Source of the DNA: Nanobdellota archaeon
Lineage (GTDB): Archaea; Nanobdellota; Nanobdellia; Pacearchaeales; GW2011-AR1
Assembly (NCBI GenBank): GCA_038045285.1
Contig: JBBSYK010000020.1
Coordinates: 1-39,388, forward strand
Direction: 5' to 3'
Length of the DNA: 39,388 nucleotides
The position numbers were made by a program, and so were the translations under genes. The notes beneath the pieces were generated by a model that worked only from the letters and a program-made list of their open reading frames with translations, was not told the origin of the DNA and searched no databases. Positions 6,762 through 26,133 of this stretch are shown here, piece by piece; the stretch's first letter is position 1, and each line of letters starts with the position of its first letter.

Positions 6762-6782
6762 ATTTATCAGAAATTAAGATGG

Positions 6783-8220: not shown

Positions 8221-8845
8221 GATAATCAATAATAACCTCTCCAGCTTCTTCTGCTGTTTTACCAAATGAAATTATGCCGTCCTCATGGCCTAGCATAGCA
8301 AATATTTTCTTCTTTTTAACATCACTATTTTTGAATAATCGTCTTACTTCCTTTGCCATCTCGGGAGTACCATATTTAACGCACTCAAGTGTATTGGGCA
8401 AATCAATTTCTTTATAATCTCTCCATAAATCAGAAGAGTGAACGTGAAATACATATCTATAATCTGTACTTATATCATAAATTGTTCCATGCGTCATCGA
8501 TTCAGAAGATGCTTCTATTGGCCCTTCTGAAATAACTAAATTCTTCTCAGGATGATACTTCAACACAATGCTATAATGCTCTTCTGTAAGATATTCTAGA
8601 TAACCTGTCTGTGTCCCGGTAATTAAAAATCTTCTATTATAAACCGGAGCTTCATATGGCTCAAGCCTTTTACTCAAATTTCCATATCCAACTCCATTAT
8701 ACTTTCTTGAATTCTGGCCTATAAGGCCTTGTTGTTTTAAAATTCTCCTCCATTCGTTCAATTCAATTATATTTTTATTTTCAATAGGCCGGCTAAAAGT
8801 ATGTCTCTTTTCAAACTTAACAACTCCTTCTTTTACTTGATCCAT
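8204..8845 (-). CDS. Class II aldolase/adducin-domain protein
   Basis: GNLSKR..., FLITGTQTG, catalytic-type ASSES, metal ligands HVH (VFHVHSS) and GHEDG. Convergent 17-nt overlap with 7093..8220. Confidence 0.65.
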   Translation of the reverse strand: MDQVKEGVVKFEKRHTFSRPIENKNIIELNEWRRILKQQGLIGQNSRKYNGVGYGNLSKRLEPYEAPVYNRRFLITGTQTGYLEYLTEEHYSIVLKYHPEKNLVISEGPIEASSESMTHGTIYDISTDYRYVFHVHSSDLWRDYKEIDLPNTLECVKYGTPEMAKEVRRLFKNSDVKKKKIFAMLGHEDGIISFGKTAEEAGEVIIDYLSRTS

Positions 8846-8901
8846 GATAATATTATTAAACTAAGAATATAAATATAGCGGTAATTAAAAATCTATATTT
8901 T

Positions 8902-10650: not shown

Positions 10651-10674
10651 AAAAAAGTCTAAATTGCGTTACTT

Positions 10675-11661
10675 TTAAGTTTTATTATGATGCTCTTTAT
10701 TCATGAATTCCCTTAATTTTCCTTCTTTTATTTTTTTAATATTATGCAAGCAGTAAAATAATGATTTAAAATAAAATTTCATCTTTAATAAATCATGTCC
10801 TTTTCTCGTCATTAGGAGCTTCAGAGGTCTTAGAATCGATATTCCTATTAGTGACCAAATAAAAATTACCTTTTCTCTCCAATTTTTATTCAAATTCTTA
10901 AAATTAAAATAAAAATGATCTATTTGATTTATATATGACATCTTTTCAGTTGGATATCTTTCTATATTTGATACTCTATGCAATAAATTTGCATAAGGAG
11001 TAATATATAATGAATTTTGATGTTTCTGAGATAAACGATAACTGAAATCTATATCTTCAGCAATAGTGTACCCAAGAAGATTTTCGTCAAAACTCTGCTC
11101 TTTAAACACAGATCTCTTGTAAGCCATGTTGACTCCAGATATCCATTGAGATTTTATTATTTTTGAGAGTTTTGAAGGATATGTATTGCCATATGCGGAG
11201 ATTATCCTTGCATTTTCATCTTCAGGAAAAGATAAGCAAAAGATTTTCCTTAAAAGTTTCTCAATTTTATTCATATTTCTTATATCATCTGATGGAACAT
11301 AAGCTGCAGCACCTTTTGCCTCTTTATACCCATTAAAAATTTTTAAAATTCCAGTAAAATAATTCTCTCCAAGATCAACGTCATCATCAATAAAACATAT
11401 AACTTTTGTTTTTTTATTAGTTTTTTTTACTCCTAAATTTCTGGCAATTGTTATAGAAGGCGTTTCTGAGAAAACATACTTAACTTTTTTATTTTTTATT
11501 TTTTTAATTAATTCAAATGTTTTTTTATCTGTACTCTGATCAACTACAATTACTTCCTTCAATTTAGAAATATGAGGTTTTAATTTATTTAGAGTTTTCT
11601 TAACATCTTCCTGTCTATTATACGTAGGCACTATAACTGTAATATCTTTTTGTTCATACAT
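10675..11661 (-). CDS. Family 2 glycosyltransferase
   Basis: ITVIVPTYNRQEDVKKTL, VVDQSTD, FIDDDV (DxD); length and position fit. Confidence 0.85.
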   Translation of the reverse strand: MYEQKDITVIVPTYNRQEDVKKTLNKLKPHISKLKEVIVVDQSTDKKTFELIKKIKNKKVKYVFSETPSITIARNLGVKKTNKKTKVICFIDDDVDLGENYFTGILKIFNGYKEAKGAAAYVPSDDIRNMNKIEKLLRKIFCLSFPEDENARIISAYGNTYPSKLSKIIKSQWISGVNMAYKRSVFKEQSFDENLLGYTIAEDIDFSYRLSQKHQNSLYITPYANLLHRVSNIERYPTEKMSYINQIDHFYFNFKNLNKNWREKVIFIWSLIGISILRPLKLLMTRKGHDLLKMKFYFKSLFYCLHNIKKIKEGKLREFMNKEHHNKT

Positions 11662-11693
11662 AAAATACTCCTCTCAATATAAGTTAAAAAAGG

Positions 11694-12602
11694 TTACTTT
11701 TTCTTAAAAACATCAACACTCTGGCTTCCAGCAAAAAAACCTTTCCAAAAACCTTTTACATAGTTAATATGCATGAAAGGAATGACTGCTGTATAATAAG
11801 GATACAAAGATACGCCTTTTTTAAATGGATAGCTTATTAAGAAAGGAATTATACCTAAAACTGGAAGAGCTTTAAATATGCCTACATGCCACCTAGGCAT
11901 TTTCCTTCCATGAATTCTAACAAGTGTGCCAAAACCATTCGCATATTGAATAACCTTTTCTAGTCTAGTTTTAAAGTCAGTTGGATGATAGTGTATTATT
12001 GCCGCATCTGGATAACCAATCTTGCCTTCTTTTTTCAGTTTAATATACAGATCAAAGTCCTCCCCAGCTGTTCTAAAGTCTTTATCGTTAAAAAACCCAA
12101 CATTACTTAGATTTGTCAACCTATAAGCACATCCCTTTTCATCCAATAAAGGTCTAATTGTTCCTTTTTCCTGCAGCATAATCGCCTTGCCAAAATTATC
12201 TAGTTTCTCCCACAGTTCATCTGGAAACTGAACTTTTGAAACAGTAGCCACTATTTCCTTATCCTCAAACGGTTTAACTAAATTTTGAAGCCAATTTTCT
12301 CCCAGGGGAATGCAATCCTGCTGCAAAACTATTACAATATCGTTTTTTGCTTTTTTAATGCCTGCATTCATTGATGAAGCAAAACTAAGGTTTTCATTAA
12401 CCTCAAACACATTAATTCTCATTTTTCTTGACCTTTTCTTAAAAGAATTAATTAATCTTAAGCATTCTTCATCAATTTTCTTATTCACAACTTCAATTTC
12501 TATCTTAAACTCATTTTTTTGATTTTCCAAAGATTTCAATATTTTCTCTAATAAAAATAATTTTGGCTGATAAAGATTAAAAACTATTGAGACTTTTTTC
12601 AT
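11694..12602 (-). CDS. Family 2-like glycosyltransferase with C-terminal membrane segment
   Basis: VSIVFNLYQP, GIKKAKNDIVIVLQQDCIP, hydrophobic C-terminus. Start moved to the second ATG (12602, MKKVSIV) because TTTATATA then sits exactly at -29. The ORF-track start is 12611. Confidence 0.65.
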   Translation of the reverse strand: MKKVSIVFNLYQPKLFLLEKILKSLENQKNEFKIEIEVVNKKIDEECLRLINSFKKRSRKMRINVFEVNENLSFASSMNAGIKKAKNDIVIVLQQDCIPLGENWLQNLVKPFEDKEIVATVSKVQFPDELWEKLDNFGKAIMLQEKGTIRPLLDEKGCAYRLTNLSNVGFFNDKDFRTAGEDFDLYIKLKKEGKIGYPDAAIIHYHPTDFKTRLEKVIQYANGFGTLVRIHGRKMPRWHVGIFKALPVLGIIPFLISYPFKKGVSLYPYYTAVIPFMHINYVKGFWKGFFAGSQSVDVFKKK

Positions 12603-12623
12603 ATTTTTCATTATTTTCAGGAT

Positions 12624-12631
12624 TATATAAA
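12624..12631 (-). promoter_or_regulatory. TATA box (TTTATATA on the minus strand), 29 nt upstream of ATG 12602
   Basis: Read directly from the sequence; one half of a divergent promoter pair. Confidence 0.45.
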
Positions 12632-12643
12632 TTTTATTGGCTT

Positions 12644-12655
12644 TGACTTAAGTCA
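12644..12655. promoter_or_regulatory. Perfect 12-bp palindrome TGACTTAAGTCA between divergent TATA boxes
   Basis: Lies between TATA 12624-12631 (-) and TATA 12689-12696 (+). Candidate regulator site; a short AT-rich palindrome could arise by chance. Confidence 0.25.
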
Positions 12656-12688
12656 CAAATAACTCAATACCAATAAACCACAGCATAA

Positions 12689-12696
12689 TTTAAATA
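12689..12696 (+). promoter_or_regulatory. TATA box TTTAAATA, 29 nt upstream of ATG 12718
   Basis: Read directly from the sequence; same spacing rule. Confidence 0.45.
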
Positions 12697-12717
12697 TCCT
12701 GGAAATAAATAAAATCC

Positions 12718-13188
12718 ATGAATGAAAGTGTAAAAAAGGTAATTGAAGGAGTTGTTATAGCACCAATGAAAAGAATACCTGATGAAAGGGGAGCAATTTA
12801 TCATATGATGAGAGCTGATGATCCTGTTTTCAAGCAATTTGGAGAGGTTTATGGTTCATGGGTTCATCCAGGAGCAATAAAATCATGGCATTTACATAAG
12901 ACAATGACTCTAAATTACGTGGTTCCTGTCGGAAAGATAAAACTAGTTTTGTATGATACGAGAGATAATTCATCAACAAAAGGAGTTTTAATGGAAATTT
13001 TTATGGGAAAAGACAATTACGCTAGAGTTACTGTTCCTCCAGGTGTTGTAAATGGATTTAAAGGTATCGGAACAGAAGACTCATTAGTAATAAATATAGC
13101 CTCTCATTCGCATGATCCTGATGAAATAGTTAGAATTGATCCTTTCACAAAAGATATTCCTTATAATTGGGAGATAAAACATGGTTGA
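12718..13188 (+). CDS. RmlC-like cupin (dTDP-4-dehydrorhamnose 3,5-epimerase / sugar ketoisomerase family)
   Basis: DERGAIY...FGEVYGSWVHPGAIKSWHLHK...GKIKLVLYDTRDNSST matches the RmlC/FdtA-like pattern D.RG...n.S....lRG.H.H....v..G.i..v.vD.R. At 156 aa it is short for a canonical RmlC. Confidence 0.7.
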   Translation: MNESVKKVIEGVVIAPMKRIPDERGAIYHMMRADDPVFKQFGEVYGSWVHPGAIKSWHLHKTMTLNYVVPVGKIKLVLYDTRDNSSTKGVLMEIFMGKDNYARVTVPPGVVNGFKGIGTEDSLVINIASHSHDPDEIVRIDPFTKDIPYNWEIKHG

Positions 13189-13205
13189 TAAGGATTAATC
13201 AAATA

Positions 13206-14072
13206 ATGAAAATCTTAATTACAGGAAGTGCAGGATTTGTCGGGAAAAATCTATTCAATTATTTAAAAAATGAGCATGAAGTTTATGGAATTTCCAGGCG
13301 TACTGGAGAGATAACAACCCATAAGTGTGATATAACAAAGAAAGATGATATTATGCAAGTTTTAAATTCAATTAATCCGGATATTATTGTCCATAGTGCT
13401 GCTTTGACTTTTGTTGATTTTTGCGAAGAACATAAAGATGAGGCTTGGACAATAAATGTTGAAGGAACTATGAATTTAGCAAAATGGTCTTTCTTCAACA
13501 AGAAGAAAGTAATCTATATCTCAACAGACTATGTTTATGCTGGAGAGAAAGGTAATTATTTTGAAGAAAGTGAAACAAAACCAGTAAATTTTTATGGAGA
13601 AACAAAGCTAGCTGCTGAAAAAATTGTCTCTATTCTTACAAATTTTCTTATACTTAGGTCAACTGTTATTTTTGGCTACGAACCCGGAGGCAACAATTTC
13701 ATGATGCAAATAGTTAACTTGAAGAATAACAGAATAATTGTAAAAGATCAAATTAGTAATCCTACTGATGTTCTAGTTCTCTGTGAATATATCAAGCGAT
13801 CTATAGAAAAAAATTTAAACGGAATTTATGTTGCAACTGGCCCTGAAACTGTTGATAGATTTGAATTTGCGTCAATTATTGCTGATGTTTTTGGAATTGA
13901 TAAGAATTTATTGCAAAGAGGAAAAACCTCTGATTCAGGACAAAAAGCTCTTCGCCCGTTAAACAATGGAACTAATTCTTCAAAATTAAGGTCTGTTCTA
14001 GATTATAAATGCCCTTCTTTAAGAGAATCGCTTGAAAATCATAAAAAGATTATGGAAAATGATATGAGTTAA
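13206..14072 (+). CDS. rmlD: dTDP-4-dehydrorhamnose reductase (RmlD) family
   Basis: MKILITGSAGFVGKNL, ISTDYVYAGEKGNYFEESETKPVNFYGETKLAAE. Start set at ATG 13206 rather than the TTG at 13167 in the ORF track. Confidence 0.85.
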   Translation: MKILITGSAGFVGKNLFNYLKNEHEVYGISRRTGEITTHKCDITKKDDIMQVLNSINPDIIVHSAALTFVDFCEEHKDEAWTINVEGTMNLAKWSFFNKKKVIYISTDYVYAGEKGNYFEESETKPVNFYGETKLAAEKIVSILTNFLILRSTVIFGYEPGGNNFMMQIVNLKNNRIIVKDQISNPTDVLVLCEYIKRSIEKNLNGIYVATGPETVDRFEFASIIADVFGIDKNLLQRGKTSDSGQKALRPLNNGTNSSKLRSVLDYKCPSLRESLENHKKIMENDMS

Positions 14073-18219: not shown

Positions 18220-18228
18220 TAATAAAAG

Positions 18229-18239
18229 TTTTATTTTTT
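18229..18239 (+). terminator. Oligo-T tract (TTTTATTTTTT) 10 nt after the prs stop
   Basis: Archaeal termination commonly uses T-runs. Sequence observation only. Confidence 0.3.
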
Positions 18240-18245
18240 GAATTA

Positions 18246-18345
18246 ATTATAGAGAGCTTTGAATAACCCTTATTTTCAAATGGTTTTCAAAGCGATTCTT
18301 AGAGGATTTTTGGGGTTTTTCAAAATCCCCTATAGACTAGAATTA
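18246..18345. mobile_element. MITE-like palindromic element, copy 2
   Basis: Aligns with copy 1 across tatagagagctttgaataaccc...ggttttcaaagcg...tagagga.ttt..ggggtttttcaaa.tc..ctatag. Right end ctatagactagaatt is the inverse of the copy 1 left end. Flanked by the 9-bp direct repeat TTTGAATTA (18237-18245 and 18346-18354). Confidence 0.6.
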
Positions 18346-18450
18346 TTTGAATTATGACTCAGCATGTTTAGGGCGTCGGAGGAGATCATATAAATAATCT
18401 TTTGGTATGTTATCATAAATTATATTATGATGCCATAATGTTAGTTTCAA

Positions 18451-18598
18451 TTTTTGAGAATGCCTAAGATAATAATTTCAAACAAAGAAATAGGAAATAA
18501 TATTTTTTCTCCCACCCAATAGGAGAGACGCGCGCAGTTTTCTTTTCAAGAAAACTAGATTGCAAAAACTTCGTTTTTGGATTTATAGGAGGATTTCC
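18451..18598. repeat. Left arm of a long degenerate inverted repeat bracketing the 9-gene operon
   Basis: Modules: A tttttgagaatgcc (18451-18464), B gaaataatatttttt (18494-18508), C gagagacgcgcgc (18523-18535), D pyrimidine/purine hairpin (18536-18556), E ggatttcc (18591-18598). Each has a reverse-complement partner in the same order at 24618-24737. Confidence 0.75.
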
Positions 18599-18691
18599 TT
18601 AGTCCTTCGGATAGATAGTCTCGCTTTCAGCGAGAAATTTAATTAAAAATAACTTAGTAGTAATCACAATATTAACTTTAAAATAGTAACA

Positions 18692-18699
18692 CTTATAAA
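18692..18699 (+). promoter_or_regulatory. TATA box CTTATAAA, 29 nt upstream of ATG 18721 (operon promoter)
   Basis: Same box and spacing as host genes. Favours ATG 18721 over the TTG 18715 of the ORF track. Confidence 0.45.
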
Positions 18700-18720
18700 C
18701 TTCTAAATATCCTTTTGTAT

Positions 18721-19425
18721 ATGAAAAAACAGTATGATGACTCAACTGCCGATATGAGAGAGACAGTTTTTTCTAAAAATATTCCCAATTTTGTCCATGA
18801 AAAGTTTTTAGATTATGTGGGAAAAACTCCAAATAGGGGTAGAATTTTAGATATTGGAACAGGAAATGGATATATCTTAAGAGAAATTAAAAAGAGATTT
18901 CCTGAGAGATATGAATTAATAGGTGTTGATTCTTCTCCTTCCATGTTAGAGAAAGCAAGATTAATTGATAAAACAATAGAATATTTGTTAGCAGATAACA
19001 ATAATCTTCCCTTTAGGGATGGCCATTTTTCAACAGTTACAGCGAAAAATGTTACTCGCTTTTCAGCAGAAGAATTTGCAAGAGTTTTACAAGTAGGAGG
19101 ATTATTTGTCTTTAGAGAATACGGACCAGGAAAAGGGTTAGTTGAAATTTCTAAACTCTTTCCGGATAGATTAATTAGATCTCGTGAGCTGGATTATTAT
19201 GTTACCCAGTTAAATAAATCTGGATTTGAGAGTATCAATGTTGAAAGATTTACTATTCAAAGACAATATGCTCAAGAGGAATTGTTAAAGATTGTTCAAA
19301 TGTTTCCATTTATTGAGAATATGGATGATTCAGATTTAGAAAAGATAAAATATCTTTTTAGAGGAAAAGAATTTATTAAAGTAACTTCCGATCCATTTAT
19401 CTTAACAGCAAGGAGGAAAAAATGA
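18721..19425 (+). CDS. Class I SAM-dependent methyltransferase (UbiE/Methyltransf_11-like)
   Basis: Motif I ILDIGTGNGYIL, ELIGVDSSPSMLEKA, LPFRDGHFS, GGLFVF. Confidence 0.8.
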   Translation: MKKQYDDSTADMRETVFSKNIPNFVHEKFLDYVGKTPNRGRILDIGTGNGYILREIKKRFPERYELIGVDSSPSMLEKARLIDKTIEYLLADNNNLPFRDGHFSTVTAKNVTRFSAEEFARVLQVGGLFVFREYGPGKGLVEISKLFPDRLIRSRELDYYVTQLNKSGFESINVERFTIQRQYAQEELLKIVQMFPFIENMDDSDLEKIKYLFRGKEFIKVTSDPFILTARRKK

Positions 19426-20351
19426 TAAGCTATGATACTTTAATTATTGGTGGAGGTCCTGCAGGAATGTCTGCAGCATTATTTGCACAAGGAGATGGAT
19501 TAAATTTTAGATTGAGTGAAAAAGGGATTCCTTGCCAGTTTGTTGAAGAAACAATCAATACCAATTTTACTAATTTAGAAAATTATCTTGGTCTATATGA
19601 TATGGACGGAACATCTGTGGCGCGAATTTTTAGAAAACATTTGGAAGATAGAAAAATTCCCCTATTTCACGAAGAAATAAAGGATATAAAACCTCTTGAT
19701 AATCTTTTTTGTATAAATTCAGATAAAGGAGAGTACATGGCAAAAACGATTATTCTAGCTACGGGAACTAGACCAAGGGAATTAACAATTCCTGGAATAG
19801 AAAATGTTCTTGAAAGAGTTCATTATGGAATTAACAAAGATTTTTCTCACTATAAAAATCATGTTGCCCTAGTTGTTGGGGGAAGAAATTCTGGAGCAGT
19901 TACTGCAGTTAGATTAAAAGAAATTGGGGTAAACCCAATCGTAATAGAAAAATCATCTAAATCAACAGCTAAAACAAAATATTTAGAAAAACTGGACGAA
20001 TTATCAATACCGCTATTAACAAATGCGAATCTTGAAAAAATTGTAGGCTTTCGAGGAATACAAGAGGCACATGTTACAATCAATAATAAATTAAAAATTT
20101 TTAATCCGATTGCTATATTTGGTTGTATTGGATATACTCCAAATAACAGAATTGCGGTAGATCTCGGATTACAATTAGATAAAGAAGGGTATATTGAAGT
20201 TGATAGAAAAATGCAAACCTCTATGGAAGGAGTATATGCGGCTGGAGATGTTAATGGCGGAGTTAAAATGATTGCTGTTGCATCAGGAGAAGGAGCAATA
20301 GCAGAATATTATGCTAATGGATATGTAAAATTAAAATGGAAAGAAGAATAG
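19422..20351 (+). CDS. Thioredoxin-reductase-fold FAD/NAD(P)-binding oxidoreductase lacking the CxxC redox centre
   Basis: DTLIIGGGPAGMSAA (FAD), VVGGRNSGAVTAVRL (second dinucleotide fold), VYAAGDVNGG. No CxxC (CATCDG-type) anywhere. ATGA overlap with the upstream gene; GGAGG 6 nt upstream. Confidence 0.75.
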   Translation: MISYDTLIIGGGPAGMSAALFAQGDGLNFRLSEKGIPCQFVEETINTNFTNLENYLGLYDMDGTSVARIFRKHLEDRKIPLFHEEIKDIKPLDNLFCINSDKGEYMAKTIILATGTRPRELTIPGIENVLERVHYGINKDFSHYKNHVALVVGGRNSGAVTAVRLKEIGVNPIVIEKSSKSTAKTKYLEKLDELSIPLLTNANLEKIVGFRGIQEAHVTINNKLKIFNPIAIFGCIGYTPNNRIAVDLGLQLDKEGYIEVDRKMQTSMEGVYAAGDVNGGVKMIAVASGEGAIAEYYANGYVKLKWKEE

Positions 20352-20815
20352 GAATGTTATTTGATTGTTTAAGGGCACCTTATGATGTAGCCCATATCTA
20401 TCAGGTAGCTGTTGCTTTAGGAAATTGTGATTTATATTTATCAGGAAATAGTATTGATCCAAATCATAAAAAAATTGTTAGTAAAACAAGATCTTGGGGT
20501 ATTGAGGAGATACCCTCTTTTAGAAAGTTTGAATCTTTGAAATCTGCAGCGGAGCATCTGCATCGAGAAGGGAAATATTTGATAGGGACATCTCCCAATA
20601 CAGATAATGATCTCTATAATTATAATTTTACAAAGCATGATTCTGTTATTGTTTTTGGAACAGAATCTTCTGGATTAACTAAAAGAAAGTCTCTTTTACT
20701 TGATGATTTAATAAAAATACCCATGAATTCTGAATGTAAATTTCTAACATTGCCTACCGCAGTTCCAGTTATAGCTTATGAATTCTATAGGCAAATAAAG
20801 GAGGCTGGAAAATGA
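20336..20815 (+). CDS. Divergent SPOUT (SpoU/TrmH-like) methyltransferase-fold protein
   Basis: IVFGTESSGL (motif 2) and IKIPMNSECKFLTLPTAVPVIAYEF (motif 3-like). Motif 1 (N.G...R) is not recognisable. An alternative start is ATG 20354. Confidence 0.6.
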   Translation: MERRIGMLFDCLRAPYDVAHIYQVAVALGNCDLYLSGNSIDPNHKKIVSKTRSWGIEEIPSFRKFESLKSAAEHLHREGKYLIGTSPNTDNDLYNYNFTKHDSVIVFGTESSGLTKRKSLLLDDLIKIPMNSECKFLTLPTAVPVIAYEFYRQIKEAGK

Positions 20816-21888
20816 AATCTTTGGATGGAAAGGTATTGTATATTATAGGAACCGGAGCAAAGAAAATTACGCAGATTCCTCGTATGATACAGGAATTTGT
20901 TGGTGAAGGAGCAGAGATTTACACTATGATGTCTGATATAGGTAAACAGATATGTGATTCTGGTTTATCAGAATTTAGAATAAATAGAAATACGATTATT
21001 CAGGGTTATTCAGGAGAAGGAGAAGCTTTACCTTTAGAAGATATGGTTTTAGTTGCACCTTGCACTTTCAATACTTTAAATAAAATTGCGGGAGGTATTG
21101 CAGATACTTATCCATTAACAATAGCTGCTACAGCAATAGGAGCTGGAAGAAATGTTGTAATTGCTCCCGCTATGAATGGAGACTTATGGTATCATCCTAT
21201 TATGCAAGAATCAAGAAAGAAATTAGAACAGTGGGGCTGTAAAATTGTTTGGCCAGAGATTACCCCCGAGAAAGTTACAATGGCTCCAATTGAAAAAATC
21301 GCTGATACAGTGTATCACATTTTATCTGGAACGCGATATGATTCTGAACAAGTTGAAAGAACCATTGATTTTGATAGATTAGTTGATAACCATTATACTG
21401 AATTTAGGGAAGTCGGTCAAGAATTAGTTGATATTGATTTAACAAGAGGAACTGGGGGTTGTTTAAGTAAAAAAGTAAACGAAGGAATTTTGGTTTCAGC
21501 GAGTGGATCTCAAGTTGGAAGTTTATCTAAACAAGACATTTCCTTAATAATAAAAGTTGAAAATGAAAAGATTCATTGGATGGGATATAAAAAACCATCT
21601 TCAGAATCTCCATTACTTTCTGAGTTATATCAAAATTTCTCAGAAGCAAATGCGATCATCCATAGTCATTGTCCAAGAATTACCTATGATAGTAAAATGC
21701 AAAAATACTCGATTCCTAATTATGTTCGAGCAGGTTGTTTTGGTGAAGGAAAGAAAATCGCAAATGTTATCTCGGATAATGAGGGTTTTGCAATTTTAAG
21801 ACTTCATGGGGAATTGGCTGTTGGAAGTTCATTACAAGAGGTATATCAAAAATTAAAAACAAAGATGGAGGAAGCACATGAAAGATAA
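20812..21888 (+). CDS. Fusion protein: HFCD/PPC-decarboxylase-like flavoprotein domain (N) + class II aldolase/adducin domain (C)
   Basis: N-terminal domain: VLYIIGTGAKK, VLVAPCTFNTLNKIAGGIADTYPLT, IAPAMNGDLWYHP (PAMNxxMW-type). C-terminal domain: GTGGCLSKK, LVSASGS, KPSSES, AIIHSHCP (HxH), LRLHGELAVG. GGAGG upstream; 4-nt overlap. Confidence 0.75.
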   Translation: MKSLDGKVLYIIGTGAKKITQIPRMIQEFVGEGAEIYTMMSDIGKQICDSGLSEFRINRNTIIQGYSGEGEALPLEDMVLVAPCTFNTLNKIAGGIADTYPLTIAATAIGAGRNVVIAPAMNGDLWYHPIMQESRKKLEQWGCKIVWPEITPEKVTMAPIEKIADTVYHILSGTRYDSEQVERTIDFDRLVDNHYTEFREVGQELVDIDLTRGTGGCLSKKVNEGILVSASGSQVGSLSKQDISLIIKVENEKIHWMGYKKPSSESPLLSELYQNFSEANAIIHSHCPRITYDSKMQKYSIPNYVRAGCFGEGKKIANVISDNEGFAILRLHGELAVGSSLQEVYQKLKTKMEEAHER

Positions 21889-22426
21889 GTTAACAACATT
21901 AATTGCAGGACCTACTGATAGAACAAAATTATTTAGATTTGGAAGCATTGCTCCAGCAGAATACCAAAATTTTATAGGTAAAAGGGCTGGTATACTGGCA
22001 AGGTATATACCTCAAATAAATATTATCCCTGATGATGGAGTTCCTTTGGATATTGCCAGAGCTTATAAAAATTCAGGAGGTGAGAATGTTGTAGGTTATG
22101 TACCAAAGGGTGGAATAAGAAAATTAGAAAAATATTTCCAATATTGCGATAAGATAGAAGAATTTGATACTGGGTGGTCAGGGCTTAATACTTGCCTTAG
22201 TTTAAAAGGAGATATTATTGTTGTTTTCGGTTTCTCACCAGGAACATTGGTTGAAGTAGTATATACAAAATATCACAAAAAATATCTAGATAGAGATGTG
22301 CCAGTTATAATTGACAGAACTACAATTGATGGGAATATGCCTCCAGAATTACTGGACGAATTAAGTATAAGGTACTTTTCTACAAACGATGAATTATCAA
22401 AAATATTGGAGGGGTATAAAAAATGA
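21878..22426 (+). CDS. LOG/SLOG-family (TIGR00725-like) Rossmann-fold nucleotide-binding protein
   Basis: DDGVPLDIARAYKNSGGENVVGYVP and IIVVFGFSPGTLVEV resemble the LOG pattern G.M.a...ga...GG...G..P / ..GG.GTl.E. By-eye call. Confidence 0.55.
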   Translation: MKDKLTTLIAGPTDRTKLFRFGSIAPAEYQNFIGKRAGILARYIPQINIIPDDGVPLDIARAYKNSGGENVVGYVPKGGIRKLEKYFQYCDKIEEFDTGWSGLNTCLSLKGDIIVVFGFSPGTLVEVVYTKYHKKYLDRDVPVIIDRTTIDGNMPPELLDELSIRYFSTNDELSKILEGYKK

Positions 22427-22890
22427 GAGGGCTATATGTGGGGAGATTTGATCCATTTCATTTAGGTCATCTTAAGGCTCATGATTTGTTATGTAAAATC
22501 GTTGATGAAGTTAAAATTGGTATTGGTGCACAAAGAGAAAATGATTTTTTAACTATAGAAGAAAGAATAAAAGGAGTTTATGAAAATACAGGAGTCCAGC
22601 CAGTTGAATTAGAAGATTTGGAGAGTAATCATCCTTTATATTGGGACTGGGGAGAGTATGTTCTGGGGAGGATTGAATATGTAGAAATAGTTGCTACAGG
22701 GAATGACTATGTTAGAGATGATTTTACTAAAAAGAATATTCCTGTTTTATGGCTACCGAGGTATGATAATATAAGTGGGACCATAATTAGAAATAAAATT
22801 AGTGAGAAAGATGATTCTTGGAAATTATTAGTTCCAGAAAAAACAAAATTATTGATATTAAACTCTGTAAGATATAAGGAAACAAAATGA
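22423..22890 (+). CDS. Archaeal NMNAT-fold (HxGH) nucleotidyltransferase
   Basis: MRGLYVGRFDPFHLGHL (GRFqPFHxGH), IGIGAQ, ISGTIIRNKI, W..LVPE: close by eye to archaeal nicotinamide-nucleotide adenylyltransferase. Substrate not determinable. Confidence 0.75.
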   Translation: MRGLYVGRFDPFHLGHLKAHDLLCKIVDEVKIGIGAQRENDFLTIEERIKGVYENTGVQPVELEDLESNHPLYWDWGEYVLGRIEYVEIVATGNDYVRDDFTKKNIPVLWLPRYDNISGTIIRNKISEKDDSWKLLVPEKTKLLILNSVRYKETK

Positions 22891-23621
22891 AACTTTATCA
22901 AGATTTAGCAAAAATGTATGATTTACTCTATTCATATAGAGATTATGGTAAAGAAGCAGATTTTTTAATTAGAAATCTTGCTAAGCGATGTAGCCCAAGA
23001 TTATTAGATGTAGCTTGTGGAACAGGGGTTCATCTTGACGCATTGAGAAAAAGATTACCTTCAGCTATTTTGGAAGGGATTGATTTAAACCAAGGAATGC
23101 TTGATGTTACTAAAGAAAAATCTTTGGATGCTGGATTGACACAAACAGATATGAGGAATTTTGATTTGGGTAGAAACTTTGATTTAGTCTATTGTTTATC
23201 TAGTTCTATTCAATATAATTTATCTCAAGAAGATTTTAAAAGAACTGTTGATTCAATGAGAAATCATGCTGTTGGAGGAAAGGTGGTATTTGATTTAGCA
23301 TACTACGTTGAGAGATGGAAAGAAGGATATACAAATATAACTGCAAATAGTGATGGAAGATTTGATGTTGCTGAGCTTTACACTTCACATTCAAGTGATG
23401 GTTTTTCATATTGGAATCCACTGTATCTAATTAAAGATAAAAAAACTGGCAGAATGGATATGCATGTTGATAAGCATAAAATAAAATTATGGAGTGTCTC
23501 AGAAGTTAGAGATATTTTATCTTCACAGGAAATTCCTTTTAAATTAAAAAGAGGATATTCTGAAGTTGAAGATGAAAATGGAGTTCCAATCTTCATTTTA
23601 GAAGGAATTAAAAAAGAATAA
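22887..23621 (+). CDS. Class I SAM methyltransferase resembling TylM1/DesVI-type NDP-aminosugar N,N-dimethyltransferases
   Basis: YDLLYSYRDYGKEADFL, LLDVACGTGVHL, GIDLNQGML, TDMRNFDLGRNFDLVYCLSSSIQY. Pattern recalled from memory for the TylM1 family. Confidence 0.65.
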   Translation: MKLYQDLAKMYDLLYSYRDYGKEADFLIRNLAKRCSPRLLDVACGTGVHLDALRKRLPSAILEGIDLNQGMLDVTKEKSLDAGLTQTDMRNFDLGRNFDLVYCLSSSIQYNLSQEDFKRTVDSMRNHAVGGKVVFDLAYYVERWKEGYTNITANSDGRFDVAELYTSHSSDGFSYWNPLYLIKDKKTGRMDMHVDKHKIKLWSVSEVRDILSSQEIPFKLKRGYSEVEDENGVPIFILEGIKKE

Positions 23622-23635
23622 ATATTTATAATAAG

Positions 23636-24091
23636 ATGAAAAGAAAAATATTAACTTTTGTTGTGAATGGCAGGAAATTTTTAGCTTTGGAAATGACCAA
23701 ACATCCTGAACATGCTCCAGAAGGAGGATGGTTTGTTGTAACTGGAGGTGTAGAAGAAAATGAATCCTCTGAAGATGCAGTTGCTCGGGAAGTTTTTGAA
23801 GAAACAGGACTAAACATAGAAGAAACAATTTTCTTAAATTGGAGTTCTATTTACGAATGGAGTGGAGAATTATGTGAAGAACAGAATTTTATCTCTTTTG
23901 TTAAACCTGGGGAGGTTATTTTGAATGAAGAGCATTCAAGGTATGAATGGTTAAATCTTGATGAGTTTATTAAAAAAATTAATTGGGATGACGATAAAGA
24001 ATTATTAAAAAAGGTTCTAGAAAAAGCACTTAACAAAGAAAAACACTTTGATAAGATAACTATTAAAGATTATAGGAGAAAAAATGAATAA
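23636..24091 (+). CDS. Nudix hydrolase
   Basis: Complete Nudix box GGVEENESSEDAVAREVFEETGL (Gx5Ex7REUxEExGU). Confidence 0.85.
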   Translation: MKRKILTFVVNGRKFLALEMTKHPEHAPEGGWFVVTGGVEENESSEDAVAREVFEETGLNIEETIFLNWSSIYEWSGELCEEQNFISFVKPGEVILNEEHSRYEWLNLDEFIKKINWDDDKELLKKVLEKALNKEKHFDKITIKDYRRKNE

Positions 24092-24584
24092 TTTAGCCAT
24101 TGCTGTGATGAATTTAGCAAATGAAACTAATGTTGGTGGTTTAATTAGAACTGCTAACGCAGCAAATATTAAAGAAGTGGTTATAGTTGGAAGAAAAAAA
24201 TGGAATAAGGGTGCTGCCACAGGAGCACATTCAAAGATCAACGTTGTTAAAATGAGAACTTCAGATGAATTTATTGAATATTGTAAGGAGCATGATTATA
24301 ATATTGTATCAATTGAAATAGGCAATGATTCTAAGAATCTTTTTGATTACAGATATCCAAACAATCCGATGTTAGTTATTGGAAATGAAGGAACAGGAGT
24401 TCCACAAAAAATTCTTGAGAATTCTATTGATAGAATTTATATCCCTCAATACGGAAGTGTTGAATGTTTAAATGCTGCGGTTGCAGGAAGTATTGTTATT
24501 TATGATTGGATTAAAAAGAATAATTCTTGTAAAGAATTAGATACAATAGATAGAAAATTTGATATTTACAAATTCCAAAAATAG
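24084..24584 (+). CDS. SpoU/TrmH-family (SPOUT) 2'-O-ribose methyltransferase-like protein, canonical motifs
   Basis: NVGGLIRTA (motif 1), LVIGNEGTGV (motif 2), IPQYGSVECLNAAVAGSIVIYDW (motif 3). AGGAG upstream; 8-nt overlap with the Nudix gene. Confidence 0.85.
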   Translation: MNNLAIAVMNLANETNVGGLIRTANAANIKEVVIVGRKKWNKGAATGAHSKINVVKMRTSDEFIEYCKEHDYNIVSIEIGNDSKNLFDYRYPNNPMLVIGNEGTGVPQKILENSIDRIYIPQYGSVECLNAAVAGSIVIYDWIKKNNSCKELDTIDRKFDIYKFQK

Positions 24585-24587
24585 CGA

Positions 24588-24608
24588 CTTCTTTTTAGAA
24601 AAAAGAAG
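24588..24608 (+). terminator. Perfect hairpin CTTCTTTTT-aga-AAAAAGAAG 4 nt after the operon stop (possible terminator)
   Basis: Contains a T5 run. The terminator role is an inference. Confidence 0.3.
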
Positions 24609-24617
24609 CAAAAAGAC

Positions 24618-24737
24618 GGAAATCCCCCTTTTCTTTTTTTAGGAAAAAAAGAAACAAAAAAAGCGCGCGTCTCTCTAATACATGGTCCACCCAAAAAAAT
24701 ATTATTTCAGAATTATATAAAACGGCATTCTCAAAAA
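24618..24737. repeat. Right arm of the long degenerate inverted repeat
   Basis: Partners of the left-arm modules: E' ggaaatcc (24618-24625), D' hairpin TTTCTTTTTTT-agg-AAAAAAAGAAA (24630-24654), C' gcgcgcgtctctc (24663-24675), B' aaaaaatattatttc (24694-24708), A' ggcattctcaaaaa (24724-24737). Confidence 0.75.
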
Positions 24738-24975
24738 CTTTGATTTTTTGCCTTCAGCATCGTTGCATTAAAATCTCGTCCTCATTTCATTCAGAGAATA
24801 GAACAGGGCTTAAACGGTTCCGAAACCTTGCAGGTTTCTCCACCCAAATTGCTCGCCACTCAAAAATTTTCCATCTCTGAAGCTCATTGGGTTGCCTATT
24901 CGCTTCGAGGGAAAATTTTTAGGAGGGCTCGCAACTTCGGTTAAGCTCGATGTTAGTTTCAATTGAGAAAAAGCG

Positions 24976-25257
24976 CTAAATCATAGGAAGTGTCTCAGTT
25001 TGATATAATACTTTTTCACCTTTGGGTTTAAGTTCACCATCAAGCATGTTTCCATACTGAATCTCAAACCTAAACCTATGCAATCCTGGCAGGTAGGTTC
25101 TTGTAGAAGGCATTACTTTTACTCTATATACACCGCTACCTTCTGGCATCTCTTCGTGCCTTAAGTGATCCATTCTTCGTAAATCTGTATTTAATTCTAC
25201 TCGAATTTCAGGATTGTTCATATCAATTTCTGTTGTATCAAGTATTCTTGTTAGCAT
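24976..25257 (-). CDS. Hypothetical small protein (93 aa from ATG 25257; the ORF track extends it to a GTG at 25338)
   Basis: No recognisable motif. TTTATAAG sits exactly 30 nt upstream of ATG 25257, the same box and spacing as the giant surface-protein gene. This favours the shorter leaderless form. Confidence 0.4.
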   Translation of the reverse strand: MLTRILDTTEIDMNNPEIRVELNTDLRRMDHLRHEEMPEGSGVYRVKVMPSTRTYLPGLHRFRFEIQYGNMLDGELKPKGEKVLYQTETLPMI

Positions 25258-25279
25258 AGGTTTAGGTGATAATAGTGAA

Positions 25280-25287
25280 CTTATAAA
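25280..25287 (-). promoter_or_regulatory. TATA box (TTTATAAG on the minus strand), 30 nt upstream of ATG 25257
   Basis: Read directly from the sequence. Confidence 0.4.
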
Positions 25288-25401
25288 GTTATCGCGCCTT
25301 TTCTCAACTCGAGATTTTTCCCTTCGGGAACGTTGCACTCTCCTTTCAGTTGGACGACATAACAGACATTAAACGGCTCAAGTCTTGCAGTCTTTCAGCC
25401 A

Positions 25402-25421
25402 ATATTTGCTGTCGCAAATAT
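25402..25421. promoter_or_regulatory. Perfect 8-bp inverted repeat ATATTTGC-tgtc-GCAAATAT in a divergent intergenic region
   Basis: Lies between the minus-strand ORF (start 25257) and ATG 25477, 27 nt upstream of the weak TATA-like ATTTTAAT (25448-25455). Confidence 0.3.
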
Positions 25422-25476
25422 CTTTCAATGCCATATGTCCCAATAAGATTTTAATCTCTTATTTATTCACATTAAT

Positions 25477-26133
25477 ATGGATTTAATTAAATTAAGCTCA
25501 AAAGAAATCGAACCAAATCCAATAATTATTGAAGCATTAAAATACATAAATGAAAACAGCTTGTTTAAAGATAAAATTGCAAAGGTTTTGGATATCGGTG
25601 CTGGAGATGGAATGGATTCTATTTTTCTAGTCAAAAATGGATTTAACGTTACAGCAATAGACTCATCATCTTATTCCATACATAAAATTAATCAACTGGC
25701 AAAGATCCATGCTATAACAATCAAATCTGCAAAATTTGATGCAATAACTTTTCCTTTTGAAACCTCAAGATTTGTATTTGCGCAACCCTCCTGCTTCAGT
25801 TCGAGAGCAAGCAAATCAAATCTTGATGGTGCTCAAGAACCCGAACACGCCCCGGACTTTAGTCCGAGGGTTCTTGACAACTACGATATAATAATATGTA
25901 TTAATGTTTTACATCTAATAAAACTAGAAGAAGCTACAGAGTTAATTAAAAAAATGAAAATGTACACTTCAGTAGGAGGCATGAATATAGTTAGCTTATA
26001 TATAAATGATGATAGTCCTCTAAATAACTTAGAAAGTTTTTATACTGATTGGAAAATCATACATTTAAATAAAAGTTTTCATAAAGTGAAAAAAAACAAA
26101 ATACTCCTAGAGTTTATCGCCGTGAAGAAATAA
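25477..26133 (+). CDS. TehB-like class I SAM methyltransferase carrying a ~39-aa in-frame insertion
   Basis: VLDIGAGDGMDSIFL, NVTAIDSS, then YDIIICINVLHLI and GGMNIV. The segment between FPFE and NYDII is a GC-rich, low-complexity insert. Confidence 0.7.
   Translation: MDLIKLSSKEIEPNPIIIEALKYINENSLFKDKIAKVLDIGAGDGMDSIFLVKNGFNVTAIDSSSYSIHKINQLAKIHAITIKSAKFDAITFPFETSRFVFAQPSCFSSRASKSNLDGAQEPEHAPDFSPRVLDNYDIIICINVLHLIKLEEATELIKKMKMYTSVGGMNIVSLYINDDSPLNNLESFYTDWKIIHLNKSFHKVKKNKILLEFIAVKK
25762..25878. mobile_element. GC-rich palindromic insertion inside the methyltransferase ORF (frame preserved)
   Basis: Nested hairpin 25834-25876: CAAGAACCC...GGGTTCTTG enclosing CGGAC-ttta-GTCCG. Shares aaccctcc, ggactttag and gagggtt with the MITE-like element at 6861-7000. 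Confidence 0.5.

What the first reader, a model, noticed from the sequence alone, without database searches (positions are those of the whole stretch)
20812..21888. Unusual domain fusion: HFCD (PPC-decarboxylase-like) flavoprotein fused to an apparently catalytically intact class II aldolase domain
In archaeal CoaBC the flavoprotein (CoaC) domain is fused to CoaB. Here the same fold (APCTFNTLNKIAGGIADT, APAMNGDLWYHP) is fused to a class II aldolase/adducin domain instead. That domain retains the PSSE catalytic Glu context and the three metal-ligand histidines (IIHSHC, LRLHGE). I could not place the conserved HFCD active-site His by eye: the aligned position appears to be Glu in GEGEALPLEDMVLVAP. 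The flavin domain may therefore not be a Cys decarboxylase. I do not know of a characterised protein with this architecture.
Basis: partly seen in the sequence, partly recalled or inferred. Interest (0 to 1): 0.65.

Follow-up and report, generated by a model that had tools for sequence, protein, structure and literature searches.

The report
Flavoprotein–aldolase fusion enzyme, function unknown
A small archaeon encodes a real, conserved but uncharacterised enzyme that joins a flavin-binding domain, which has lost the residues needed for coenzyme A synthesis, to an intact metal-dependent aldolase domain, and its gene always sits beside an unusual methyltransferase in a cluster shared with ultra-small bacteria.

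Summary
ORF 20812-21888 (+) encodes 358 aa with a Pfam Flavoprotein domain (aa 11-167) and a class II aldolase domain (aa 199-348), both above the curated cut-offs. It is not an assembly chimera: about 64 clusters at 32-100% identity share the architecture, and I examined 29 genomic loci.

The aldolase site is under strict selection: His284, His286, His332, Tyr304 and Ser263 are invariant in 29/29, and Glu265 is Glu in 27 and Asp in 2. The flavoprotein half keeps its FMN motifs. It lacks the EpiD/CoaC catalytic His and shows a 10-residue gap where I place EpiD's substrate clamp. The clamp Cys also appears absent, by eye. It is very unlikely to be a cysteine decarboxylase.

New here: the gene always neighbours a divergent SPOUT methylase (29/29; canonical Asn and Arg replaced) and usually a class-I methyltransferase (25/29). 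NUDIX, a viperin-like radical SAM, a LOG-fold protein and a CxxC-less TrxR-like flavoenzyme are accessory. The module occurs patchily in DPANN archaea, Patescibacteria and low-GC gut MAGs.

No solved structure or paper covers it. Function is unknown. My best guess is FMN-coupled metal-enolate chemistry on a phosphorylated, ribose-derived substrate.

The parts
20812..21888 (+). Fusion ORF (FUS), 358 aa: flavoprotein domain, helical linker, class II aldolase domain
20842..21312 (+). N-terminal HFCD/CoaC-like flavoprotein domain (aa 11-167). FMN-type motifs are kept (Glu76, Asp77, Pro83, Asn87, Lys91, Asp98, Met157, Asp165 invariant). The catalytic His is absent (Glu69 codon at 21016-21018) and the clamp region is gapped.
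21313..21405 (+). Inter-domain linker (aa 168-198). A strand and a long helix (aa 185-207) are predicted with high confidence. The linker is conserved in length across the family, with no frameshift or stop.
21406..21855 (+). C-terminal class II aldolase domain (aa 199-348). Codons: Ser263-Ser264-Glu265 at 21598-21606, His284 at 21661-21663, His286 at 21667-21669, Tyr304 at 21721-21723, His332 at 21805-21807.
20336..20815 (+). SpoU1: minimal (159 aa) divergent SPOUT methyltransferase. It neighbours the fusion in 29/29 loci. Motif-1 Asn is Asp17, motif-1 Arg is Gln23 and motif-3 Asn is Thr138.
18715..19425 (+). MT_A: class-I SAM methyltransferase (Methyltransf_25/11), found in 25/29 loci
19422..20351 (+). 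TrxR-fold FAD/NAD(P)H oxidoreductase with no CxxC (0 of 6 members have one). DPANN-only accessory and a candidate electron donor.
21878..22426 (+). U182: LOG/SLOG-fold protein with a PG-T-x-x-E motif. DPANN-only accessory.
22423..22890 (+). NMNAT-like nucleotidyltransferase (CTP_transf_like), below the curated cut-offs. An APH-family kinase takes its place in L005.
22887..23621 (+). MT_B: second class-I SAM methyltransferase
23636..24091 (+). NUDIX hydrolase, present in 12/29 loci in both archaea and bacteria
24084..24584 (+). SpoU2: canonical SpoU/TrmH-type 2'-O-methyltransferase (motif 1 NVGGLIRT)

Best explanation
Shown. The ORF encodes a genuine, selectively maintained bifunctional-looking enzyme. 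It is the signature gene of a small gene module that has moved between domains of life: a class-I methyltransferase (MT_A), a divergent SPOUT methyltransferase (SpoU1) and the fusion. A NUDIX gene accompanies them in both domains. Loci labelled bacterial (plus L028, labelled archaeon) add a viperin-like radical SAM, and the bacterial-labelled ones a second methyltransferase. DPANN archaea add a LOG-fold protein, a TrxR-fold flavoenzyme without CxxC and a nucleotidyltransferase or kinase.

Inferred mechanism. The C-terminal domain works like a FucA/MtnB-type class II aldolase. It holds a divalent metal on His284, His286 and His332. It binds a phosphorylated alpha-hydroxy-carbonyl substrate through Ser263, Ser264 and Gly232. 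Glu265, probably helped by Tyr304, forms a metal-stabilised enediolate for C-C cleavage or formation, or for a related dehydration or epimerisation. The N-terminal domain is derived from CoaC but is no longer a cysteine decarboxylase. It binds FMN and supplies or removes electrons for the same substrate or its aldehyde/enediol product. In archaea the adjacent TrxR-fold NAD(P)H oxidoreductase would recharge it.

The accessory genes are nucleotide- or ribose-centred (NUDIX, LOG-fold, viperin-like radical SAM, nucleotidyltransferase). SpoU1 has lost the canonical RNA-methylase Asn and Arg. I therefore favour a ribose- or nucleotide-derived small molecule, methylated by SpoU1 and MT_A, over RNA as the substrate. 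The identity of the substrate is unknown.
For: Both domains and folds are confirmed. The architecture is conserved in about 64 clusters at 32-100% identity and in about 30 representatives at the 50% level. Metal, Glu and phosphate-site residues are invariant in 29 loci and in alignment A1. FMN-type motifs are invariant while the His67 equivalent is absent and the clamp region is gapped. Neighbour counts: SpoU1 29/29, directly upstream in 24; MT_A 25/29; radical SAM 13/29; NUDIX 12/29; U182 and the TrxR-like gene 6/29. SpoU1 has Asn to Asp17, Arg to Gln23 and Asn to Thr138 compared with the canonical SpoU2, and most SPOUT structures align only to its C-terminal half. U182 has a LOG/Moco-carrier/PpnN fold. 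The radical SAM partner matches the pVip model over its full length at 96.7 bits and resembles MoaA and MftC. The TrxR-like protein has no CxxC. The distribution across DPANN, Patescibacteria and low-GC gut MAGs, with archaeal-bacterial identity of only 29-41%, indicates horizontal spread of a functional unit.
Against: There is no biochemical data. No SPOUT enzyme is known, to my knowledge, to methylate a small molecule, so the invariant SPOUT partner could equally point to RNA. The FucA Asn29 equivalent, a phosphate ligand, is Phe or Cys here, so the phosphate site differs from FucA. No sugar isomerase or phosphorylase is conserved in the module. FMN and metal binding are inferred from motifs only. 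NCBIfam scores are far below every equivalog cut-off, so the chemistry (aldolase, dehydratase, epimerase or decarboxylase) is not resolved.
Confidence: 0.4

Rival explanations
1. RNA-modification machinery. SpoU1, MT_A and the fusion act together on a tRNA or rRNA nucleotide, with the fusion building or remodelling a sugar-derived or redox-dependent hypermodification.
For: A SPOUT-family gene is linked in 29/29 loci, usually directly upstream with overlapping or near-abutting reading frames. All characterised SpoU relatives found are RNA 2'-O-methyltransferases such as AviRb, TrmL, TrmH and RlmB. The module is retained in very small genomes such as Saccharibacteria and Pacearchaeota. The NUDIX gene has weak RppH and YtkD-like hits. 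A canonical SpoU2 sits in the same archaeal cluster.
Against: SpoU1 lacks the canonical motif-1 Asn and Arg and the motif-3 Asn. All characterised enzymatic members of the class II aldolase family that I know of act on small phospho-sugars, and the Ser-Ser-Gly phosphate site is conserved here. The module is patchy and rare: about 25 species representatives among the 80 loci kept, and about 30 representatives at the 50% level among 1.84 billion proteins. That fits an accessory function better than core translation. Isoelectric points are near neutral and not informative.
Confidence: 0.25
2. Disposal or salvage of SAM by-products, similar to a DHAP shunt. The aldolase domain would cleave 5-deoxyribulose-1-phosphate or methylthioribulose-1-phosphate, which derive from the 5'-deoxyadenosine or methylthioadenosine made by neighbouring SAM enzymes. 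The flavoprotein domain would process the aldehyde product.
For: Several of the conserved neighbours use SAM: methyltransferases, SPOUT enzymes and a radical SAM. The aldolase domain scores similarly to MtnB and archaeal FucA models and matches the B. thuringiensis aldolase 6btd/6btg, whose entries are titled fuculose phosphate aldolase and deoxyribose-phosphate aldolase. I recall this enzyme as the 5-deoxyribulose-1-phosphate aldolase. An APH-family kinase, the Pfam family I recall as holding methylthioribose kinase MtnK, replaces the nucleotidyltransferase in L005.
Against: No isomerase, nucleosidase or phosphorylase is conserved in the module. The kinase was seen in only one of the loci examined. 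The linkage is to one specific divergent SPOUT, not to SAM enzymes in general. The archaeal versions have no radical SAM. I know of no HFCD flavoprotein that acts on simple aldehydes.
Confidence: 0.13
3. A natural-product, RiPP or conflict system: a radical SAM, methyltransferases and an HFCD flavoprotein tailor a peptide or a nucleoside analogue, with a SPOUT gene as the self-resistance gene.
For: The bacterial radical SAM partner resembles MftC, sactipeptide maturases and viperin. The methyltransferases give weak hits to RiPP methyltransferases. SpoU1's best PDB hit is the antibiotic-resistance methylase AviRb. The distribution is patchy and points to horizontal transfer.
Against: No precursor-like small ORF was found in the window's gaps. 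The HFCD domain lacks the His that LanD enzymes need. PADLOC gives no hit for the fusion, SpoU1, U182 or the TrxR-like protein. SpoU1 lacks the catalytic Arg expected of a resistance methylase.
Confidence: 0.1
4. A true phosphopantothenoylcysteine decarboxylase (CoaC) that happens to be fused to an aldolase, working in CoA biosynthesis or salvage.
For: The N-domain's nearest families are CoaBC and EpiD. One archaeal protein, P0116, is CoaC+CoaB+Aldolase_II and aligns with both halves at 31% and 25% identity.
Against: The catalytic His is absent family-wide and the clamp region is gapped, and I see no clamp Cys by eye. There is no CoaB domain in the ORF or cluster. P0116, by contrast, keeps the His. 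The NCBIfam coaBC score is 52.5 bits against a cut-off of 219.7.
Confidence: 0.03
5. An assembly or annotation artefact: two genes joined by a misassembly or frameshift.
For: None found.
Against: The same continuous architecture, 351-397 aa long, recurs in about 64 clusters from JGI, ENA, NCBI and Logan assemblies, in 25 species-representative genomes and in about 30 representatives at the 50% level. The linker is conserved and confidently modelled.
Confidence: 0.01

Closest known systems
HFCD flavoproteins: CoaC/Dfp N-domain, AtHAL3a, EpiD, MrsD (Pfam PF02441)
   Same: Same fold (Foldseek TMt 0.76-0.81 to AtHAL3a and EpiD). The motifs I take to be the HFCD FMN-binding motifs (P-x-T-x-N-T-x-x-K-x-A-x-G-x-A-D, P-A-M-N, T-M-x-P) are conserved.
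   Different: No catalytic His: EpiD His67 aligns to the variable Glu69. The EpiD alignment has a 10-residue gap where I place the substrate clamp, and I see no Cys matching the CoaC clamp Cys (by eye). The partner domain is an aldolase, not CoaB.
Class II aldolase/adducin family: FucA, archaeal short FucA (FucA_Meth, PRK08660), MtnB, AraD, OtnC/YgbL (PF00596)
   Same: Same fold (TMt about 0.65). The three metal-binding His, the catalytic Glu in P-S-S-E, the Ser-Ser and Gly phosphate site, and a Tyr at about the position of FucA Tyr113 are conserved in 27-29 of 29 copies.
   Different: Every equivalog scores far below its cut-off (at most 51 bits against 137-400). The FucA Asn29 equivalent is Phe or Cys. 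The family has its own invariant motif H-x-H-C-x-x-x-T-Y and an N-terminal helical linker. It is always fused to a flavoprotein-like domain, or a degenerate one.
P0116, an archaeal CoaC+CoaB+Aldolase_II triple fusion (L087:6757-8580, GCA_042570655.1)
   Same: The only other architecture found that joins an HFCD domain to a class II aldolase domain. Both halves align with the window protein, and both share the LEDMV(L/V)V motif.
   Different: It keeps the CoaC His (VEHIQLED) and a full CoaB domain. Its gene context has no SPOUT or MT_A. It was seen on a single contig.
Stand-alone His-less flavoproteins of Chloroflexota (155-255 aa, loci L032-L086)
   Same: They share the subfamily signature LVAPCTFNT(F/L)NK...ADN and WGC...(M/L)AP, at 32-42% identity to the N-domain over most of its length, and they also lack the catalytic His.
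   Different: No aldolase domain and no conserved neighbours. They are uncharacterised too.
SpoU/TrmH family RNA 2'-O-methyltransferases (AviRb, TrmL, TrmH, RlmB), for the obligatory partner SpoU1
   Same: PF00588 at 56 bits, with motif 2 and the overall shape of motif 3 conserved.
   Different: Motif-1 Asn is Asp and motif-1 Arg is Gln, both invariant. Motif-3 Asn is Thr. The N-terminal half does not align to most solved SPOUT enzymes.

Membership tests
HFCD cysteine decarboxylases (CoaC/PPCDC, EpiD, MrsD) | Flavoprotein (PF02441) Rossmann-like fold | tested here: met
   PF02441 at 58.8 bits against 22.7. Foldseek AtHAL3a and EpiD TMt 0.76-0.81.
HFCD cysteine decarboxylases (CoaC/PPCDC, EpiD, MrsD) | FMN-binding sequence motifs | tested here: met
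   Pro83, Asn87, Lys91, Asp98, Met157 invariant and Asn122 in 22/29. Actual FMN binding cannot be tested here.
HFCD cysteine decarboxylases (CoaC/PPCDC, EpiD, MrsD) | Catalytic His (EpiD His67; from my own knowledge also AtHAL3a His90 and E. coli Dfp His75) | tested here: not met
   His67 aligns to Glu69. The position is variable and never His. No conserved His in aa 58-78 in 29 copies.
HFCD cysteine decarboxylases (CoaC/PPCDC, EpiD, MrsD) | Substrate-recognition clamp, with the Cys needed to reduce the enethiol in CoaC | tested here: not met
   The profile alignment to EpiD has a 10-residue gap where I place the clamp (clamp position from memory). The window loop WPEITPEKVTMAP has no Cys.
Bifunctional CoaBC | CoaB (PF04127 DFP) domain fused or adjacent | tested here: not met
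   No PF04127 in the ORF or in any cluster gene. The coaBC_dfp model scores 52.5 bits against a cut-off of 219.7.
Class II aldolase/adducin superfamily (PF00596) | Fold and Pfam domain | tested here: met
   PF00596 at 61.3 bits against 22.2. Foldseek FucA TMt about 0.65.
Class II aldolase/adducin superfamily (PF00596) | Three His metal ligands (FucA His92, His94, His155) | tested here: met
   His284, His286 and His332 in 29/29. The mapping to FucA numbering is by motif (H-x-H and H-G), from my own knowledge.
Class II aldolase/adducin superfamily (PF00596) | Catalytic Glu (FucA Glu73) and the Ser-Ser phosphate site | tested here: met
   Ser263 29/29; Ser264 25/29; Glu265 is Glu in 27 and Asp in 2.
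Class II aldolase/adducin superfamily (PF00596) | Phosphate ligand Asn (FucA Asn29) | tested here: not met
   The equivalent position 217 is Phe in 17, Cys in 10 and Asn in 2.
Specific equivalogs: FucA, MtnB, AraD, OtnC, DrdA | Score above the curated NCBIfam cut-off | tested here: not met
   Best scores are 51 (PRK08660, cut-off 203), 49.9 (MtnB, 137) and 49.7 (FucA_Meth, 250).
SpoU/TrmH RNA 2'-O-methyltransferases (partner SpoU1) | Motif-1 Asn and catalytic Arg, and motif-3 Asn | tested here: not met
   Asp17, Gln23 and Thr138 are invariant in SpoU1, while SpoU2 has N..R and N.
LOG/SLOG phosphoribohydrolase-like proteins (partner U182) | SLOG Rossmann fold with a PGGxGTxxE-type motif | tested here: inconclusive
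   The fold matches LOG, Moco carrier protein and PpnN (TMq 0.6-0.7). The motif is S-P-G-T-L-x-E, with Ser120, Gly122, Thr123 and Glu126 invariant. The GGGxxG motif is not evident. Pfam LDcluster4 is below its cut-off.
Thioredoxin reductase (partner TrxR-like) | Redox-active CxxC | tested here: not met
   0 of 6 members contain C-x-x-C. TIGR01292 scores 173 bits against a cut-off of 343.

The most novel reading that the evidence does not exclude
The MT_A-SpoU1-FUS module makes, or remodels, a so far unknown methylated metabolite or cofactor derived from ribose or a nucleotide. It would use two unprecedented enzymes: a SPOUT methyltransferase repurposed for a non-RNA substrate, and an FMN-plus-metal flavo-aldolase in which a CoaC-derived redox domain is wired to a class II aldolase enediolate site. 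The pathway would have been exchanged horizontally among ultra-small symbionts (DPANN, Patescibacteria) and reduced gut Firmicutes. Fusing a trimer-forming fold to a tetramer-forming fold could also produce a cage-like 24-mer.
Probability: 0.3. Interest if true: 0.8.

Novelty: new variant of a known kind. Interest (0 to 1): 0.6.

Why it matters
Both folds are textbook, but this combination has no characterised member, no solved structure and no paper in the searched library. The strict conservation of the aldolase metal site, alongside the loss of the HFCD decarboxylase residues, shows that a CoA-biosynthesis domain has been repurposed. The obligatory pairing with a SPOUT methylase that has lost the canonical RNA-methylase residues defines a compact, experimentally tractable three-gene module. 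It is shared by DPANN archaea, Patescibacteria and gut MAGs, organisms whose metabolism is largely inferred and whose conserved unknown genes are the main gap in that inference. Solving its function would add either a new metabolite pathway or a new RNA modification, and would give a clear case of gene-module transfer between archaeal and bacterial episymbionts.

Tried and rejected
1. Assembly chimera: rejected.

2. Stand-alone Chloroflexota flavoproteins as a functional clue: 55 loci clustered, with no conserved neighbours beyond antisense artefacts.

3. Contexts of related architectures: P0120 and P0121 (about 320 aa, degenerate N-region plus aldolase) and P0142 (about 800 aa, an N-terminus that looks like a response-regulator receiver by eye, plus aldolase). 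Their contexts are unrelated and tell nothing about this module.

4. Defence-system models (PADLOC): no hit for the fusion, SpoU1, U182 or the TrxR-like protein. Only generic methyltransferase and NUDIX hits, plus the pVip-like radical SAM.

5. RiPP precursor search in the window's gaps (18220-18714 and 24585-25476): no convincing small ORF. Rfam found nothing in the window, and there are no tRNAs.

6. Isoelectric points as a test of RNA against small-molecule substrate: near neutral and not informative.

7. Sequence search of U182 against PDB: nothing. Only the structure prediction gave the LOG fold.

It was redone with database homologues.

9. Seven literature searches found nothing on this fusion or module. 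The archaeal fusion survey PMC11237513 does not mention it.

10. Whether the two active sites face each other could not be tested, because the model coordinates are not exposed to the scripting tool.
Full report
**1. Observation**

All the quoted peptide motifs are present. Pfam places a Flavoprotein domain (PF02441) at aa 11-167 (58.8 bits, gathering cut-off 22.7). It places a class II aldolase/adducin domain (PF00596) at aa 199-348 (61.3 bits, cut-off 22.2).

NCBIfam gives only sub-threshold hits. The N-half hits CoaBC (52.5 bits against 219.7). The C-half hits archaeal-type aldolase PRK08660, MtnB, FucA_Meth and OtnC (44-51 bits against 137-250). So the protein belongs to both superfamilies but to no curated equivalog.

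An AlphaFold2 model built on 16 family members is confident throughout (pLDDT 93.2, pTM 0.89). Foldseek against the PDB matches the N-half to AtHAL3a and EpiD (TMt 0.76-0.81) and the C-half to FucA (TMt about 0.65). No chain covers both halves: the best query-normalised TM-score is about 0.4.

**2. Not a chimera**

A search of 5.8 billion proteins returns about 64 clusters with the same PF02441+PF00596 architecture. They are 351-397 aa long, 32-100% identical, and come from JGI, ENA, NCBI and Logan assemblies. The shorter hits lie on contigs of about 1-3 kb.

A profile search of 1.84 billion representatives at the 50% level finds about 30 full-length representatives. A scan of species-representative genomes finds 25 species with the full-length gene among the 80 loci kept. 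The linker is conserved in length and confidently modelled.

The nearest genome is a Candidatus Pacearchaeota MAG at 84% identity. The rest of the window is archaeal housekeeping plus a glycan island.

**3. Active sites**

*Aldolase half.* In 29 non-redundant genomic copies, His284, His286, His332, Tyr304, Thr291, Ser263, Gly232 and Gly216 are invariant. Glu265 is Glu in 27 and Asp in 2. By motif, and from my own knowledge of FucA, these correspond to the three metal-binding His, the catalytic Glu73, the Ser71/Ser72 and Gly44 phosphate site, and roughly Tyr113. The FucA Asn29 equivalent is not kept (Phe or Cys).

*Flavoprotein half.* The residues of the FMN-type motifs are invariant: Pro83, Asn87, Lys91, Asp98 and Met157. 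Asn122 of P-A-M-N is kept in 22/29.

HMMER aligns the EpiD catalytic His67 to Glu69, with both the single sequence and the family profile. That column is variable and never His, and no His is conserved anywhere in aa 58-78. In the alignment to human PPCDC (1qzu), the segment I take to carry its catalytic His lies in an insertion that the family lacks. The alignment to EpiD has a 10-residue gap where I place EpiD's substrate clamp. By eye the loop has no Cys.

**4. Genomic context: the main new result**

I looked up six distant homologues and then clustered all neighbours within 6 kb in 29 loci.

| Neighbour | Loci (of 29) | Notes |
|---|---|---|
| SpoU1-type SPOUT, 156-165 aa | 29 | directly upstream on the same strand in 24; downstream in 5 |
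| MT_A, class-I methyltransferase | 25 | |
| Radical SAM, 303 aa | 13 | 12 loci labelled bacterial plus L028, labelled "uncultured archaeon" |
| NUDIX | 12 | both domains |
| Second class-I methyltransferase | 11 | loci labelled bacterial; all 11 also carry the radical SAM |
| U182 and TrxR-fold protein | 6 each | DPANN only |

In this window the cluster spans 18715-24584: MT_A, TrxR-like, SpoU1, FUS, U182, NMNAT-like nucleotidyltransferase, MT_B, NUDIX, SpoU2. Most neighbouring reading frames overlap or abut.

Archaeal and bacterial fusion proteins are only 29-41% identical. Yet the MT_A-SpoU1-FUS order is shared by Pacearchaeota and Woesearchaeota, several Patescibacteria lineages (Saccharibacteria, Moranii-, Paceibacterota, WWE3) and low-GC gut MAGs labelled Clostridia or Bacilli. 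Taxon names are those in the record titles. This pattern indicates horizontal spread of a functional unit.

**5. The partners**

*SpoU1.* It is a bona fide PF00588 member, and its best solved relative is AviRb. Its family-invariant motif 1 is P-Y-D-x-A-H-I-x-Q. Aligned to the canonical SpoU2 of the same window (N-V-G-G-L-I-R), the Asn is Asp17 and the Arg is Gln23, and the motif-3 Asn is Thr138. Most SPOUT structures align only to its C-terminal half. From my own knowledge, the motif-1 Arg is the catalytic residue of TrmH. SpoU1 probably therefore has a changed substrate or chemistry.

*U182.* It has no Pfam hit above the cut-off and no PDB sequence hit. Its model (pLDDT 92.7) has a LOG/SLOG fold. 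The best matches are Moco carrier protein, LOG with AMP, PpnN/YgdH and DprA. It keeps an S-P-G-T-L-x-E motif.

*TrxR-like protein.* None of six members has a CxxC. It is an NAD(P)H/FAD oxidoreductase of the TrxR fold and not a disulfide reductase.

*Radical SAM partner.* It matches prokaryotic viperin models over their full length (96.7 bits). It also resembles MoaA and MftC, and scores below all curated cut-offs.

**6. Relatives with other architectures**

- P0116, from an archaeon, is CoaC+CoaB+Aldolase_II. It keeps the CoaC His and aligns to both halves of the window protein. This gives a plausible origin: an archaeal CoaBC-aldolase fusion that lost CoaB and the decarboxylase residues.
- About 55 Chloroflexota species (with a few others) carry stand-alone His-less flavoproteins of the same subfamily, with no conserved neighbours.
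- Proteins of about 320 aa and about 800 aa carry a degenerate flavoprotein-like region in front of an aldolase domain with the same H-x-H-C..T-Y signature. Their contexts are unrelated.

**7. Mechanism**

*Shown.* The fusion is conserved. It has an intact aldolase-type metal and phosphate site. Its FMN-type motifs lack the decarboxylase residues. It is always linked to a divergent SPOUT and usually to a class-I methyltransferase.

*Inferred.* The C-domain generates a metal-stabilised enediolate from a phosphorylated alpha-hydroxy-carbonyl compound. The FMN domain performs a coupled redox step, fed in archaea by the TrxR-fold protein. The substrate is a ribose- or nucleotide-derived small molecule that SpoU1 and MT_A methylate. 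I base this on the nucleotide-centred accessory genes (NUDIX, LOG-fold, viperin-like radical SAM, nucleotidyltransferase or kinase) and on SpoU1's lost RNA-methylase residues.

I give this about 0.4. The rivals are:

| Rival | Probability |
|---|---|
| RNA hypermodification complex | 0.25 |
| DHAP-shunt-like disposal of SAM by-products | 0.13 |
| Natural-product or conflict system | 0.10 |
| True CoaC | 0.03 |
| Artefact | 0.01 |

**8. Novelty**

No solved structure, no curated family, only the names "hypothetical protein" or "flavoprotein", and nothing in seven literature searches.

Both folds are known, so I class this as a new variant of known kinds: a new architecture and a new module. I do not class it as categorically new. 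Interest is 0.6. If the small-molecule SPOUT and flavo-aldolase pathway proves real, it would deserve about 0.8.

Noticed in passing
window 20336-20815: SpoU1 belongs to a tight SPOUT subfamily (147 clusters, all about 156-165 aa). Its invariant motif 1 is P-Y-D-x-A-H-I-x-Q, so the canonical Asn and Arg are replaced, and its motif 3 is F-L-T-L-P. It is an uncharacterised SPOUT variant in its own right.
   Followed up: yes
window 19422-20351: A thioredoxin-reductase-fold protein with no CxxC in any of six orthologues. It is probably an NAD(P)H:flavin or ferredoxin oxidoreductase. The six fall into two sequence types with 38-40% identity between them.
   Followed up: partly
L087:6757-8580 (P0116, archaeon GCA_042570655.1): A 607-aa CoaC+CoaB+class II aldolase triple fusion that keeps the CoaC catalytic His, followed by an acetyltransferase gene. 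It suggests an unexplored link between class II aldolases and archaeal CoA metabolism. It was seen on one contig only.
   Followed up: partly
L032-L086 (Chloroflexota and a few others): About 55 species carry stand-alone 155-255 aa flavoproteins of the same His-less HFCD subfamily (LVAPCTFNTFNK...). They have no conserved gene neighbours and their function is unknown.
   Followed up: yes
L091:6001-8403 (P0142) and P0157, P0175, P0230: Proteins of about 800 aa whose N-terminus looks like a response-regulator receiver (by eye; Pfam finds only the aldolase domain). A long unknown region is followed by the same linker and aldolase module, with the Glu of PSSE replaced by Ser in P0142. In L091 the gene sits beside PPDK_N and PEP-utilizers genes, a purine/cytosine permease and a gene with only faint FAD-oxidoreductase hits.
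   Followed up: partly
P0114 (739 aa): A protein with four tandem Flavoprotein (HAL3/PPCDC-like) domains. It is an unusual repeat architecture, unrelated to the window.
   Followed up: no
window 1991-14072: A sugar-nucleotide and glycan biosynthesis island: several NAD-dependent epimerases/dehydratases, a DegT-type aminotransferase, a carbamoyltransferase, two GT2 glycosyltransferases, a class-I methyltransferase, and RmlC-like and RmlD-like genes.
   Followed up: partly
window 33658-38325 (-): A 1555-aa ORF with only a weak Sortilin/Vps10 (BNR-like) hit. It may be a large surface protein.
   Followed up: no
window 24585-25476: An unusually long gap of about 0.9 kb after the cluster. Its only sizeable ORF is 120 aa on the minus strand (24976-25338), with no Pfam hit. 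No Rfam family matches.
   Followed up: partly
window 20812-21888 (whole protein): From my own knowledge, HFCD domains assemble as trimers or dodecamers and class II aldolases as tetramers. A covalent fusion of a C3 unit and a C4 unit could in principle form an octahedral 24-mer cage. This was not testable here.
   Followed up: no
window 25477-26133: A TehB-like SAM methyltransferase just beyond the cluster matches the TehB profile in two separate stretches, which suggests an insertion in the domain.
   Followed up: no
L004:3422-4333 (-) and equivalents in 13 loci: The 303-aa radical SAM partner of the bacterial modules is viperin-like over its full length but scores below the curated viperin cut-off. 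It has no SPASM domain and always comes with an extra class-I methyltransferase.
   Followed up: partly
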